From positions 6,382,270 through 6,446,269 of the forward strand of contig JADJBV010000001.1 in NCBI GenBank assembly GCA_016703535.1: a stretch of 64,000 nucleotides of DNA. The letters run 5' to 3'. Position numbers and translations under genes: made by a program. Under the pieces are notes generated by a model. That model was not told the origin of the DNA. It did no database searches and saw only the letters and a program-made list of their open reading frames with translations. The DNA comes from Deltaproteobacteria bacterium (GTDB lineage: Bacteria; Myxococcota; Kuafuiibacteriia; Kuafuiibacteriales; Kuafuiibacteriaceae). Below are positions 36,057-38,438 of this stretch, one piece after another. Each line of letters begins with the position of its first letter. The stretch's first letter is position 1.

Positions 36057-36989
36057 TCAAAGGTCCGTCGCGTGAAGGTCCTTTCCGAATTGTCGTTCCA
36101 GCGCCTCGGCGACGCAATGTCGGTGACACTGGGCCGGTAGGTGTTCGTAGCAAGTAAGGGCGACGCGGTCACCCGCACGGAACCAATCGCGCAGCTTCTT
36201 CAGGGCGCTGGTCTGCTTCGGTAACCAGTCGCGCACATACTCCCTGAAGAGCGCGTCGTAATCGGCTTGGGTATCAAGACTCTGGCGCTTCTCGGACGCG
36301 ATGCCGAGTTCGGGAAGGTGCTCGTAGCGAATCCCGACCGCGTCGCAACCTCGTGCGAGGCTGTTCTTGGAGAAGCCATATTTGCGGCTGATCGGGTTGC
36401 GGCGGACATCGCACAAAATCGTGGTGCCGTTCTTCAGGAGGAGGTTGAGGTAGGTATCAAGCGAATGACCTTCGTAGCCAATCGTCTGAACTGACGCCCG
36501 TTTTTGATCGACTCGAAGGGCAGCTATCTGCTTGAGCGCTATCGCGTCCCCTTTCAGGACGCGGGCAGCGATCTCACTTCGGGTGGCGAAGTACGGAAAT
36601 CTCCGATACGTGTCGGCAACGAGCTCGTCACCTCGCAATTTTTGGTATCGACGCGCAAACGCCGCCATCTGCATGTCGATCGTGCGACCGATGACGCCGC
36701 GGCCTTCGTCAGTGAGCTGCCAGGTGCTCTCGTCGTTCACTAGCAGGCCGCGCTCAACGAGCTTTCGTCGATCGGCGTACGACATGAACGAGAAGGCTCC
36801 GAACTTGTGCGGGACAAAGTCGTAGGGCGCTTCGGACGGGGACTCTTGGCAGTACAGGAAGAGCAGCTTTTGGAAGTCCAGCTTGCTCGCTTGGCCACCG
36901 AGAGCGTCGAGCAGCTGCAAGAGCTGCCGCTGACGAGCGGGCAGCGTCGTCGCGGTCTTCTCCAATGGTCGGGCCCGAGCAGCGGTCAT
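36057..36989 (-). CDS. DUF4065 (Panacea/SocA-like) N-terminal domain fused to DUF488 C-terminal domain, 310 aa
   Basis: SKLDFQKLLFLYCQ...YDFVPHKFGAFSF (Panacea-like). TIGYEGHSLDTYLNLLLKNGTTILCDVRRNPISRKYGFSKNSL...ALTCYEHLPAQCHRHCVAEAL (DUF488 consensus). ATG 36987-36989 after the GC-junk 5' extension. Confidence 0.6.
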   Translation of the reverse strand: MTAARARPLEKTATTLPARQRQLLQLLDALGGQASKLDFQKLLFLYCQESPSEAPYDFVPHKFGAFSFMSYADRRKLVERGLLVNDESTWQLTDEGRGVIGRTIDMQMAAFARRYQKLRGDELVADTYRRFPYFATRSEIAARVLKGDAIALKQIAALRVDQKRASVQTIGYEGHSLDTYLNLLLKNGTTILCDVRRNPISRKYGFSKNSLARGCDAVGIRYEHLPELGIASEKRQSLDTQADYDALFREYVRDWLPKQTSALKKLRDWFRAGDRVALTCYEHLPAQCHRHCVAEALERQFGKDLHATDL

Positions 36990-37150
36990 CAACGTTTCCC
37001 TTGGCGCTTGAGTTTGGGGGAAGCGGTGCGAGATGCTCGGCGATCTCGGGCATCTCGGTCGACCCTCACCCTGCCGAACCCTACCAGCGCGATCCGCTGG
37101 AAACAACTGGGCAATCGAGACGGGAGACACAGGCCAAGCTTCGATCGCAA

Positions 37151-37804
37151 TCAATCTGCAGCGTGAGGCGGTGGGTTCGCAGCGACTTGCCGGTGCTGTG
37201 CCTCGCGGATGCTCACCAGGCTCCGCCGGATGCAGGCGACCTCGCGCTCCCGGACGATTCGCGTCAGTTCGTCCGCGCGGTCGGGAAACTGTTGCGCTAT
37301 CCAAACAGCCCCATTCTCCCAGGCCCCGAGCTCCCGTGCCAGATCGATGGGAGCCGTGCGCACCGCTTCCCGTAGGTCGACGAAGCTTGCAGCAAGGTCT
37401 GGATGAACTCGTTCAAGCTCAGACCAGGCGGCGTCAAAGGTCCGCGCGCCTTGATGTGCCGGCTTGAATCCTTGAAGGAGGTGGCCAAACTCGTGGAGCA
37501 GGTCCGCGATGATCTCCTGTGCACCTGAGGGCGGGGCGGCGTGAAGGTAGATCTTGCTCTGGTCCCACGACACCTTGCTCGTGGCACGAGGGTCCTTGAA
37601 AGGCCGCATCGACCAAACTTGTGCTCGCCAGCTCCGAGGATCCCAGATTCCAGCTGCCGCAAGCTCCGCGTCGCTGACATCCGCAGATTTCCGTTCTCCG
37701 ACGACTTCGATTTCACGTTGGAGGGTGGTTAGCTCAGCCTCGAAGCGCTGGAGGTCGGGGACGTTCTCGAACAGCCTGTTTCGAATCTCGGCGGACGTGG
37801 CCAT
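37151..37804 (-). CDS. HExxH-motif protein (ImmA/IrrE-like Zn-metallopeptidase?), 217 aa
   Basis: IIADLLHEFGHLL. Confidence 0.5.
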   Translation of the reverse strand: MATSAEIRNRLFENVPDLQRFEAELTTLQREIEVVGERKSADVSDAELAAAGIWDPRSWRAQVWSMRPFKDPRATSKVSWDQSKIYLHAAPPSGAQEIIADLLHEFGHLLQGFKPAHQGARTFDAAWSELERVHPDLAASFVDLREAVRTAPIDLARELGAWENGAVWIAQQFPDRADELTRIVREREVACIRRSLVSIREAQHRQVAANPPPHAAD

Positions 37805-37871
37805 TGGAGCATTCTAGAGCCCCTAAGGCGGTGGTGCCCAGGCCGGAATCGAATCGCTTGTCCGGTTTGGG

Positions 37872-38438
37872 TCACCTGCAAGCGCGAGCGGTAGCTGGTT
37901 CCTTGAGAAGATCGTCGCGCCGCTGCTTGGCGATCGGCGTCCATTTCGCCAAAAAGCCGGGTAGGTCTTCGTCAAGAAGGACATCAATGCCGACTGAGGA
38001 TGCTCCAATCCCGGCCAACTCGTTCGTGACGCGCGCTGACGCCGAATTTAAAGCCGCTCGCTTGGTTGAGTTCATCTTCGTGACAGTCTTTCCCCACGGT
38101 TCTCCGTTCGGTCCGACCTGGAACAACACAGTCGCCAACACTGGAGCGCCGAGTCGCGCCATGACCGACAGGCTAGCCGCGTCTTTCACAAGACTCGTCG
38201 TCACACCAACCCCTTCAACCTCGAATGCGGCAACCGGGATCCACAACGGAGATTCGGCAGTCGCGCCTCTCAACGCCCAGATCACGTCAATCGCGTAGTT
38301 CCTATCAGTCCCGAACACGTTGAACTCAGGGACGGCATGAAGGTCAAGGTCGACGCCTGCCTGGCAGAGTCGAGCGCAAACCTCGTGCTTCGACATCGCA
38401 AGTTCGCTCAATCCCGCATGTTGACCGAGCGCGTTCAT
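37872..38438 (-). CDS. Small hypothetical protein (175-189 aa), weak Vsr/DUF559-like (PD-(D/E)xK-like) motif
   Basis: YAIDVIW...PVAAFEVEG resembles Y.vDf...laiEvDG. Start 38438 or 38396. The upstream 2/3 of ORF 37872..39263 is high-GC artefact. Confidence 0.35.
   Translation of the reverse strand: MNALGQHAGLSELAMSKHEVCARLCQAGVDLDLHAVPEFNVFGTDRNYAIDVIWALRGATAESPLWIPVAAFEVEGVGVTTSLVKDAASLSVMARLGAPVLATVLFQVGPNGEPWGKTVTKMNSTKRAALNSASARVTNELAGIGASSVGIDVLLDEDLPGFLAKWTPIAKQRRDDLLKEPATARACR

What the first reader, a model, noticed from the sequence alone, without database searches (positions are those of the whole stretch)
36057..38438. Panacea(DUF4065)-DUF488 fusion, HExxH peptidase-like and small Vsr-like genes upstream of the ThsA-like gene: possible regulatory/toxin-antitoxin layer
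DUF4065 (Panacea) domains are antitoxin-type hubs. HExxH ImmA/IrrE-like peptidases usually act as proteolytic switches. A DUF4065-DUF488 fusion is an unusual architecture. The gene order (H-G-F-E then D-C, gaps 67, 161, 6 and 120 nt) suggests one transcription unit feeding into the SIR2-SLOG/ThiC pair.
Basis: partly seen in the sequence, partly recalled or inferred. Interest (0 to 1): 0.6.

Follow-up and report, generated by a model that had tools for sequence, protein, structure and literature searches.

The report
Mosaic island: DUF488 gene pair plus orphans
The flagged stretch is not one regulatory layer for the neighbouring ThsA-like gene but three unrelated mobile modules, of which only one, a widespread DUF488-fusion gene with the gene just downstream of it, is a conserved unit: an already catalogued but untested candidate phage-defence pair that behaves like a toxin-antitoxin pair.

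Summary
The ORFs and gaps are as described. F (36057-36989) has a solid DUF488 domain. Its N-terminal domain gets no Pfam DUF4065 hit, but its predicted fold and one divergent relative support a distant Panacea/DarG-C-terminal-domain relationship.

F is not linked to G, H or the ThsA/ThiC pair. It forms a fixed pair with E (35217-36050, just outside the flagged interval), and both match PADLOC candidate system PDC-M19 (E 1e-100 and 1e-108). Across 183 fetched loci (1.6 Mb), F-E never sits near a homologue of G, H, ThsA or ThiC. DNA homology to relatives starts exactly at F's ATG and ends about 12 nt before E's stop.

E almost never occurs without an adjacent DUF488 gene (114 of 115 loci). F often survives with E broken, deleted or absent, including orphan copies in phage contigs. 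This is toxin-antitoxin-like asymmetry, with E as the likely harmful partner.

G (HEFGH) has one distant homologue among 1.8 billion representatives. Its peptidase fold is unconfirmed and it is not ImmA/IrrE by profile. H has one homologue, in a different operon, and no Vsr support.

The F-E pair is a new member of a known, untested candidate system. Interest is moderate.

The parts
36057..36989 (-). Gene F, 310 aa: PDC-M19A. It is a fusion of a Panacea/DarG-CTD-like domain and DUF488.
   Evidence: PADLOC PDLC04505, E 2.7e-100, over residues 18-305. Pfam DUF488, E 8e-28. PHROG 14939, E 7e-49. The 120 listed homologues are full-length at 67% identity or more. AF2 pLDDT 83, pTM 0.81.
36495..36938 (-). 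N-terminal domain of F (about aa 18-165): helical with three short strands, Panacea/DarG-C-terminal-domain-like. The invariant G64-A65-F66 sits where Panacea has its GPV motif.
   Evidence: Foldseek top PDB hit is 7yk3 B/D (DarG CTD), E 2e-3, prob 1.0. A BFVD Panacea-domain protein matches at prob 0.98, TMt 0.54. Divergent relatives read YGPFSF at this position. The L050 relative hits PF13274 at E 0.0097. The window protein has no Pfam hit. PMC13621843 states that DUF4065 proteins are homologous to the DarG CTD.
36099..36461 (-). DUF488 domain of F (aa 177-297). Invariant residues are D194-V195-R196 and C280-x-E282...C288-H289-R290 (nt 36120-36152).
   Evidence: Pfam. Invariant columns in alignment A1. 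Weak fold matches to dual-specificity phosphatases and class III methylases.
35217..36050 (-). Gene E, 277 aa: PDC-M19B, the obligate partner of F. Its fold is unknown. It is the candidate toxin or effector. It lies outside the flagged interval.
   Evidence: PADLOC PDLC04508, E 1.1e-108. PHROG 25907, E 2e-63. An E match lies immediately downstream of F in 26 of 27 genome loci. 114 of 115 E-anchored loci have an adjacent DUF488 gene. There is no significant Pfam or PDB sequence match.
36990..37150 (-). 161-nt gap upstream of F. It is the breakpoint of homology. The HTH_17 gene that overlaps F's start in the closest relatives is missing here.
   Evidence: blastn homology to L003, L103 and L105 starts exactly at 36989. 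HTH_17 genes overlap the F start in relatives. tblastn finds no HTH_17 homologue upstream of F; the only window match is a weak one (E 0.28) at about 52.2 kb. The fold is not significant, z -0.28.
37151..37804 (-). Gene G, 217 aa: near-orphan protein with HEFGH (nt 37481-37495) and a downstream conserved RELxAW. It is possibly a minimal zincin.
   Evidence: Only a self hit among 5.8 billion proteins. One remote homologue, P0124, among 1.84 billion representatives, E 1.2e-10. Conserved motifs. Sub-threshold hits only: TIGR04267 at 18 bits against cutoff 40, archaemetzincin at E 0.93, and phrog_87 metallo-protease at E 0.098 for P0124. AF2 pLDDT 61 with no PDB match.
37872..38438 (-). Gene H, 188 aa: rare protein of unknown function. 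It is a real gene under purifying selection.
   Evidence: One homologue, P0003, at 68% identity. Against it, 58 codons differ synonymously and 60 non-synonymously. In L001/L002 it follows two MBL-fold genes and an E2/E1/JAB gene, which are different neighbours. No profile hits.
38716..39743 (-). Frameshifted IS91-family (Y2_Tnp) transposase remnants bounding the island upstream of H.
   Evidence: Pfam PF04986, E 1.7e-16 and 1e-4, on two overlapping ORFs.
32671..35132 (-). Context only: the ThsA-like gene (SIR2 plus STALD; 33723-35132) and the ThiC-like gene (32671-33747). This is a separate module.
   Evidence: Pfam and PADLOC. No homologue sits near any F-E pair. No DNA homology is shared with F-E loci.

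Best explanation
The interval is a mosaic of independently acquired modules in a low-GC3 island bounded by an IS91 remnant: [H] [G] [F-E] [ThsA-ThiC].

Only F-E is a conserved functional unit. It is the two-gene cassette that PADLOC lists as the untested phage-defence candidate PDC-M19.

I infer that it works like a DarTG-type toxin-antitoxin or abortive-infection pair. E would be the harmful effector, of unknown fold and probably an enzyme acting on a nucleic acid or nucleotide-derived substrate. F would neutralise it in two ways. Its Panacea/DarG-CTD-like N-domain would hold E. Its cysteine-dependent DUF488 domain would reverse or process E's product.

Shown: pair conservation, domain identities, asymmetric decay, orphan F copies in phage contigs, and a position beside the immunity repressor in a temperate phage.

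Inferred: E's toxicity, F-E binding, and eraser chemistry.

G and H are near-orphan passengers with no demonstrable link to F-E or ThsA. G may be a small zincin-like metalloprotein.

The confidence of 0.5 is for the whole statement. The mosaic and F-E pairing part alone is about 0.9. The toxin-antitoxin-like mechanism alone is about 0.45.
For: Identity of the pair:
- PADLOC M19A and M19B hits at 1e-100 and 1e-108.
- F-E adjacency in 26 of 27 genome loci and in 8 of 15 viral loci anchored on F.
- An adjacent DUF488 gene in 114 of 115 loci anchored on E.
- DNA homology limited to 36989-35229.
- No G, H, ThsA or ThiC homologue beside F-E in any of 183 loci, 1.6 Mb.

Asymmetry between the partners:
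- E is inactivated while F stays intact in five genome loci: IS3 insertion in L010, nonsense codons in L011 and L015, absence in L013, truncation in L027. F is never lost alone.
- Orphan full-length F occurs in viral contigs L039, L042-46 and L048. L048 and L049 carry near-identical F genes, with and without E.

Domains and context:
- The N-domain fold matches the DarG CTD and a Panacea protein (PMC13621843).
- The invariant C...CHR motif.
- In Gordonia phage Nymphadora the DUF488 gene and the E homologue flank the immunity repressor in the lysogeny module.
- Some cassettes sit directly after type I R-M hsdS genes. This matches how PDC candidates were defined (bioRxiv 10.1101/2024.01.29.577857).
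Against:
- No experiment exists for PDC-M19.
- The asymmetry rests on small numbers (5 loci to 0; one-sided sign test about 0.03) and partly on MAG assemblies, which can carry errors.
- Some E partners are bare DUF488 proteins without the Panacea-like domain, so sequestration by that domain cannot be essential.
- The same dependence of E on DUF488 would arise if the two were consecutive enzymes of one pathway.
- Fold matches of DUF488 to phosphatases are weak (E 0.05-0.5).
Confidence: 0.5

Rival explanations
1. F and E are two enzymes of one nucleic-acid modification or end-processing pathway, for example a transferase plus a DUF488 phosphatase-like processing step. Hosts and phages would use it for DNA or RNA modification or repair. 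It would not be a toxin-antitoxin pair.
For: The invariant core is DUF488 plus E, even where the Panacea-like domain is absent. The pair is common in viral contigs, 47 loci. E has many invariant polar residues, as an enzyme would. [quoted passage not shown]
Against: A pure pathway does not explain why only E decays while F is retained. It does not explain why phages keep F alone. It does not explain why F carries an antitoxin-type binding domain.
Confidence: 0.27
2. One reading: H-G-F-E is one regulatory or toxin-antitoxin layer, co-transcribed with and controlling the ThsA-like/ThiC-like pair.
For: All the genes lie on the same strand with short gaps, and no terminator-like sites or significant hairpins lie between them. 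F has lost its usual HTH_17 gene and upstream region, so it may depend on read-through from G.
Against: The genes do not co-occur anywhere else. None of 183 loci with F-E has a G, H, ThsA or ThiC homologue. The homologues of H and G have entirely different neighbours. Homology breaks exactly at the module borders. No close ThsA relatives were found in metagenome contigs that could be used to test linkage from that side.
Confidence: 0.04
3. G is an ImmA/IrrE-type or other zincin protease that acts as a proteolytic switch on F. It would cleave the Panacea-like domain to release E, having replaced the lost HTH_17 regulator.
For: HEFGH plus a conserved downstream glutamate (RELxAW) is shared with the only homologue. 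The predicted topology is a beta-hairpin followed by the HExxH helix, which is zincin-like. G occupies the position directly upstream of F where HTH_17 normally sits.
Against: There is no Peptidase_M78 or any other peptidase profile hit for G or its homologue at E<=10. G shows no similarity to a phage ImmA-like protease. The model is low-confidence and has no PDB match. The homologue of G is not next to any DUF488 or E gene. There is no HTH partner.
Confidence: 0.05
4. The N-terminal domain of F is simply a winged-helix DNA-binding domain, making F an autoregulator fused to an enzyme, and not a toxin-binding Panacea domain.
For: There are weak HemN_C and HTH_45 winged-helix hits over F residues 61-97. 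Foldseek also matches the MarR/PadR/OhrR regulators. The subclade that lacks the N-domain sometimes carries a short HTH instead (L089 and L094).
Against: The best structural hits, at prob 0.98-1.0, are DarG CTD and Panacea rather than MarR-type regulators at prob 0.2-0.7. The targeted PF13274 hit in a relative also points to Panacea. A separate HTH_17 regulator gene is present in many cassettes.
Confidence: 0.12

Closest known systems
PADLOC phage defence candidate PDC-M19 (Payne et al., bioRxiv 10.1101/2024.01.29.577857)
   Same: Both genes match the M19A and M19B models end to end. They lie on the same strand with a 6-nt gap. In other genomes the relatives sit inside or next to type I R-M loci.
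   Different: Nothing structural differs. The family itself is untested, and no mechanism or name has been published. The window copy lacks the HTH_17 gene that its closest relatives have.
DarTG toxin-antitoxin/defence system (DarG = macrodomain plus C-terminal DarT-binding domain)
   Same: F combines an enzymatic domain with a DarG-CTD/Panacea-like domain. It is encoded next to a partner that cannot persist without it. Orphan antitoxin-like copies occur in phages, as reported for DarG-like genes (PMC11825919 title and abstract).
   Different: The domain order is reversed. The enzyme is DUF488 rather than a macrodomain. E has no DarT (DUF4433) or other ADP-ribosyltransferase signature. The gene order is antitoxin first.
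PanA/PanT (Panacea, DUF4065) type II toxin-antitoxin pairs (Kurata et al. 2022, PMC8832971)
   Same: The N-domain fold, the central helix followed by a G-P/A-V/F strand motif, and adjacency to a variable or unknown partner are shared.
   Different: The window protein does not reach the Pfam threshold. The domain is fused to a conserved enzyme. The partner E is constant rather than hypervariable. In some relatives the domain is dispensable.
ImmA/IrrE (Peptidase_M78, COG2856) proteolytic switches
   Same: G has an HExGH motif on a predicted helix preceded by a beta-hairpin.
   Different: G has no profile match, no adjacent XRE-type HTH substrate gene, and no similarity to a phage ImmA-like protein. 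It has only one homologue anywhere.
Thoeris (ThsA plus ThsB)
   Same: The neighbouring gene D matches ThsA models (SIR2 plus STALD).
   Different: F, G and H are not ThsB/TIR proteins and never co-occur with ThsA elsewhere. No link to Thoeris was found.

Membership tests
PADLOC PDC-M19 | A protein that matches the PDC-M19A model | tested here: met
   PDLC04505, E 2.7e-100, residues 18-305 against profile positions 3-289 of 294.
PADLOC PDC-M19 | A protein that matches the PDC-M19B model, adjacent and on the same strand | tested here: met
   PDLC04508, E 1.1e-108, full length. The gap to F is 6 nt.
PADLOC PDC-M19 | Anti-phage activity | not testable with these tools
   The PDC systems are explicitly untested candidates.
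DUF488 (PF04343) | HMM score above the gathering threshold | tested here: met
   97.9 bits against a cutoff of 22.2.
DUF488 (PF04343) | Conserved DVR and C-x-E...CHR motifs | tested here: met
   D194, V195, R196, C280, E282, C288, H289 and R290 are invariant in 37 sequences.
Panacea / DUF4065 (PF13274) | HMM score above the gathering threshold | tested here: not met
   The window protein has no hit at E<=10. The best relative, L050, scores 17.3 bits against a cutoff of 25.7, E 0.0097.
Panacea / DUF4065 (PF13274) | Fold: a central helix surrounded by helices, with a small 3-strand sheet carrying the GPV motif | tested here: inconclusive
   The AF2 topology fits. Foldseek matches DarG CTD at prob 1.0 and a Panacea protein at prob 0.98, but TM-scores are only 0.45-0.54. 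The motif reads GAF here and GPF in relatives.
Panacea / DUF4065 (PF13274) | Neutralises an adjacent toxin by direct binding | not testable with these tools
   There is only indirect support from the asymmetric decay of E.
DarTG | DarT (DUF4433) ADP-ribosyltransferase toxin | tested here: not met
   Pfam gives no DUF4433 hit for E or its relatives.
DarTG | Macrodomain in the antitoxin | tested here: not met
   F carries DUF488 instead.
ImmA/IrrE (Peptidase_M78) | Profile match | tested here: not met
   G and P0124 have no Pfam hit at E<=10. The only related hits are sub-threshold: TIGR04267 at 18 bits against cutoff 40 for G and phrog_87 at E 0.098 for P0124.
ImmA/IrrE (Peptidase_M78) | HExxH embedded in a zincin fold | tested here: inconclusive
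   The motif is present and conserved. The model has pLDDT 61 and no PDB match below E=1.
ImmA/IrrE (Peptidase_M78) | Adjacent XRE-type HTH partner | tested here: not met
   The neighbours H and F have no XRE HTH domain. The neighbours of the homologue have no Pfam domains.
Vsr / PD-(D/E)xK endonuclease | Profile or sequence similarity to Vsr or another PD-(D/E)xK family | tested here: not met
   H has no Pfam, NCBIfam or PADLOC hit, and its only PHROG hits are insignificant (E>=0.18). hhalign against E. coli Vsr (sequence recalled from memory) and against an Mrr_cat protein gives prob <1%.
Vsr / PD-(D/E)xK endonuclease | Restriction-endonuclease-like fold with catalytic D...(D/E)xK | not tested
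Only a loose pattern is visible (E19, D51, E73-x-E75, K85).
Thoeris accessory/regulatory genes | Conserved linkage of F, G or H with ThsA | tested here: not met
   No ThsA match lies beside F-E, G or H homologues in any of 183 loci.

The most novel reading that the evidence does not exclude
F-E is a new DarTG-like reversible-modification immune module. E would be a toxin of a so-far unseen fold that modifies DNA, RNA or a nucleotide. The cysteine-dependent DUF488 domain would be the matching eraser, tethered to E by a divergent Panacea domain. Phages would carry orphan F or DUF488 genes as counter-defence. This would give the first biochemical function for DUF488 and a new toxin class.
Probability: 0.3. 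Interest if true: 0.75.

Novelty: new member of a known kind. Interest (0 to 1): 0.4.

Why it matters
DUF488 is a very widespread domain with no known function. E. coli YeaO belongs to it (own knowledge), and this search alone scored thousands of homologues.

The comparative pattern found here gives a concrete, testable hypothesis for DUF488 and for the untested candidate system PDC-M19. The pattern has four parts:
- E depends on an adjacent DUF488 gene.
- E decays while F stays intact.
- Orphan F copies occur in phage contigs.
- F has a DarG-like architecture.

For this window specifically, the result removes a tempting but wrong reading. The genes upstream of the ThsA-like gene are not its regulators, so the ThsA/ThiC pair should be analysed on its own.

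Tried and rejected
- G homologues: the word-indexed search found only G itself. The exhaustive HMMER search found one remote homologue.
- H homologues: one was found.
- Viral-contig scans with H and with G found nothing.
- The metagenome scan with ThsA found nothing.
- The exact-sequence look-up of E and of G returned no record.
- Profile searches of F, E, G and H against PDB sequences gave nothing significant.
- Pfam scans of diverse E homologues gave only noise: DUF2716 at E 0.0013 and Tyr-DNA_phospho at E 0.086.
- G against a phage ImmA-like metalloprotease showed no similarity.
- H against Vsr and against Mrr_cat showed no similarity.
- The neighbours of the H and G homologues were searched against the window and nothing is shared.
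- The promoter and terminator scan and folds of the three intergenic gaps gave nothing above shuffled controls.
- The repeat search of the island found no flanking repeats around the modules.
- Literature: there are no papers on 'PDC-M19'. No paper links DUF488 to defence mechanistically. Burroughs & Aravind 2023 could not be opened.
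Full report
**Observation**

The four minus-strand ORFs and their spacing are exactly as described:
- H: 37872-38438, 188 aa.
- G: 37151-37804, 217 aa.
- F: 36057-36989, 310 aa.
- E: 35217-36050, 277 aa.

The gaps are 67, 161 and 6 nt, then 120 nt to the ThsA-like gene if it starts at 35096, or 84 nt if it starts at 35132. H, G and F have the same lengths as deposited proteins of a Deltaproteobacteria MAG.

The whole 30-38.5 kb stretch has GC3 of 0.61-0.72, against about 0.84 in flanking genes. It ends at frameshifted IS91-family transposase fragments at 38716-39743. It is therefore a horizontally acquired island.

**Domain calls**

F carries a strong DUF488 domain over residues 177-297 (PF04343, E 8e-28). 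Pfam gives no DUF4065/Panacea hit for F, even with the N-terminal 166 residues searched alone at E<=10.

- An AlphaFold2 model of F, built from 37 homologues, has pLDDT 83 and pTM 0.81.
- Its best PDB match is chains B and D of 7yk3 (E 2e-3, prob 1.0). Those chains are the C-terminal, toxin-binding domain of the antitoxin DarG.
- A 2026 paper states that DUF4065 proteins are homologous to that domain (PMC13621843).
- In the viral structure library, a 'SocA-like Panacea domain' protein matches at prob 0.98.
- Divergent family members read YGPFSF where the window protein reads FGAFSF. This is the position of the conserved GPV strand described for Panacea (PMC8832971).
- One such relative (L050) hits PF13274 at E 0.0097, 17.3 bits, below the 25.7-bit cutoff. 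As a test of one pre-specified family, this corresponds to p of about 4e-7 per sequence.

I conclude that the N-domain is a divergent Panacea/DarG-CTD-like domain by fold. It is not a Pfam member.

The DUF488 half gives weak fold matches to dual-specificity phosphatases and class III methylases. It keeps an invariant C280-x-E...C288-H-R290 motif at the end of a strand. From my own recollection, this agrees with Burroughs & Aravind 2023, who place DUF488 in the rhodanese-phosphatase superfamily. The citation is confirmed, but the text could not be opened.

**What F belongs to**

F and E match the two models of PADLOC's candidate system PDC-M19 end to end, at E 2.7e-100 and 1.1e-108. They also match PHROGs 14939 and 25907. 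PDC systems are 145 untested candidates. They were found because they are embedded in BREX, DISARM or type I R-M loci (bioRxiv 10.1101/2024.01.29.577857).

Comparative evidence for the pair:
- In 27 genome loci fetched with F, 26 show an E match immediately downstream. The gap is about 10-70 nt.
- In 126 loci fetched with E (46 newly fetched viral, 80 metagenome), 115 had enough upstream sequence to assess. Of these, 112 have a DUF488 gene directly upstream, two have one adjacent downstream or convergent, and one has none.
- Across all 183 fetched loci (1.6 Mb), no homologue of G, H, the ThsA-like gene, the ThiC-like gene or the two plus-strand island genes lies near an F-E pair.
- At the DNA level, similarity between the window and its closest relatives (L003, L103, L105, about 74%) runs from 36989 to 35229 only. 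That is from F's ATG to about 12 nt before E's stop.
- H's similarity to its homologue covers H alone, 38399-37871.

The island is therefore a mosaic of separate modules: [H] [G] [F-E] [ThsA-ThiC].

**A missing regulator**

In the closest relatives, including Myxococcus xanthus DK1622, an 80-90 aa HTH_17 gene overlaps F's start codon by four bases. The window has no HTH_17 homologue upstream of F; the only tblastn match anywhere in it is a weak one (E 0.28) far away near 52.2 kb. Homology breaks exactly where that gene would end.

F-E here must therefore be expressed either from the 161-nt gap or by read-through from G. This is the only real argument for co-transcription. No terminator-like site or significant hairpin lies in the gaps. 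The one promoter-like match, in the H-G gap, is within chance expectation.

**How F-E probably works**

Two asymmetries stand out.

First, when one partner is damaged, it is E. With F intact, E shows:
- an IS3 insertion in L010;
- a nonsense codon at the invariant Tyr13 in L011;
- a nonsense codon at position 147 in L015;
- complete absence in L013;
- truncation in L027.

In L024, both genes are affected. F is never lost alone.

Second, full-length F occurs without E in 7 of 15 viral contigs. L048 and L049 carry near-identical F genes, with and without E. E, by contrast, essentially never occurs without DUF488.

This pattern is expected if E is harmful unless F is present. Together with the DarG-like architecture of F, it suggests a DarTG-like logic. 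E would modify a target. The DUF488 domain would reverse or process that modification. The N-domain would sequester E.

Two further observations fit a defence role:
- In Gordonia phage Nymphadora, the DUF488 gene (gp42) and the E homologue (gp43) sit beside the immunity repressor in the lysogeny module. From my own knowledge, prophage-encoded defences usually lie there.
- Several host cassettes follow hsdS genes.

Caveats:
- Some E partners are bare DUF488 proteins, or carry a short HTH instead of the Panacea-like domain. The invariant core is therefore DUF488 plus E, and a two-enzyme pathway remains a serious rival.
- The decay counts are small and partly come from MAGs.

**G and H**

G has only itself as a hit among 5.8 billion clustered proteins. 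It has one remote homologue, P0124 (184 aa), among 1.84 billion representatives.

The two share three motifs: SK(V/I)SWD, ADLLHE(F/L)GH(L/F)LQG and DLxRELxAW. The HExxH helix and a downstream glutamate are therefore conserved, as in gluzincins.

Only sub-threshold motif-level hits appear:
- TIGR04267 at 18 bits against a cutoff of 40.
- Archaemetzincin at E 0.93.
- phrog_87 'metallo-protease' at E 0.098, for P0124.

The AF2 model shows a hairpin before the HExxH helix, but its pLDDT is 61, and it has no PDB match below E=1. G is unrelated to a phage ImmA-like protease. Its homologue sits alone among unannotated genes, with no HTH, DUF488 or E gene nearby.

H has one homologue at 68% identity. 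Against it, 58 codons differ synonymously and 60 non-synonymously, so H is a real gene under purifying selection. That homologue is the last gene after an E2/E1/JAB fusion and two MBL-fold genes. It is followed by a ComF-like phosphoribosyltransferase and a SLOG/HTH protein. None of these is present in the window.

No profile, PDB sequence or pairwise test links H to Vsr or any PD-(D/E)xK family. Only a loose E19/D51/E73-x-E75/K85 pattern can be read from the alignment.

**Verdict**

The sequence features are real, and the DUF488 call is solid. The Panacea call is right at the level of fold but not by profile. The HExxH protein is an unconfirmed zincin candidate. The Vsr label is unsupported.

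The proposed unit, a layer feeding into ThsA/ThiC, is not supported. The conserved unit is F plus E, a new member of the catalogued but untested PDC-M19 candidate system.

Its toxin-antitoxin-like evolutionary behaviour and DarG-like design make it a reasonable experimental target for assigning a function to DUF488. That sets the interest at a moderate level.

Noticed in passing
window 36990-37150; L003, L103, L105, L034, L037: The closest relatives of the F-E cassette carry an 80-90 aa HTH_17 gene whose stop overlaps F's start. In the window it is missing, and DNA homology breaks exactly at F's ATG. The regulator appears to have been lost when the cassette was inserted or rearranged.
   Followed up: yes
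L042-L046, L048 vs L049, L039 (IMG/VR contigs): Phage or prophage contigs carry full-length F without E. L048 and L049 have near-identical F genes, with and without E. These may be orphan 'antitoxin' genes used as counter-defence, as reported for DarG-like genes.
   Followed up: partly
L073, L077, L091, L089, L094, L100, L080, L092: In some viral loci the partner of E is a bare DUF488 protein of about 150 aa, an HTH-DUF488 protein, a split N-domain and DUF488 pair (L100), or a DUF488 gene downstream of or convergent with E. The invariant core is DUF488 plus E.
   Followed up: partly
L183 (Gordonia phage Nymphadora NC_031061.1, 33833-35130): gp42 (DUF488, annotated 'HipA toxin?') and gp43 (an E homologue, annotated hypothetical) are convergent. 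They sit next to the immunity repressor gp44, the integrase and an ImmA-like metalloprotease in the lysogeny module.
   Followed up: partly
L001 2000-10140: The only homologue of H is the last gene of a putative operon. The operon has a 393-aa protein, an E2/E1(ThiF)/JAB fusion, a 271-aa membrane-like protein and two MBL-fold proteins. A ComF-like phosphoribosyltransferase and a SLOG/HTH (dnstrm_HI1420) protein follow. It looks like an uncharacterised ubiquitin-like conjugation conflict system.
   Followed up: no
window 32671-35132: The ThsA-like gene (SIR2 plus STALD; PADLOC ThsA1, E 5.5e-66) overlaps by 25 nt a short ThiC-like gene of 358 aa that matches ThiC profile positions 49-369 of 420. 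Among the larger ORFs of the island that I scanned (30.1-38.5 kb), none is ThsB/TIR-like. No close relatives turned up in the JGI metagenome contigs.
   Followed up: no
window 30134-32142 (+): A SAM-methyltransferase-like gene (Methyltransf_34, E 6e-7) overlaps a DUF1848 gene (E 1.5e-88; PADLOC 'RTasDUF1848' model, E 3e-43). No reverse transcriptase lies nearby. They sit at the left end of the island.
   Followed up: no
window 38716-39743 (-): Two overlapping ORFs carry the halves of an IS91-family Y2 transposase (PF04986). This is a frameshifted pseudogene directly upstream of H. IS91/ISCR-type one-ended transposition could have brought in H and G.
   Followed up: partly
window 40187-40348: A 27-nt inverted repeat (40187-40244, 85% complementary, 4-nt loop) is followed by three overlapping 17-nt copies, period 10, of GTCCGGATTCGTCCGGA. 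They lie just outside the island.
   Followed up: no
L010 11000-12250; L024 10909-15525: In other genomes the E genes are interrupted by an IS3-family element (L010) and by a 4.6-kb insertion (L024), while the upstream F reading frame shows no stop or frameshift. In L024 the first ~79 residues of F were not matched.
   Followed up: partly
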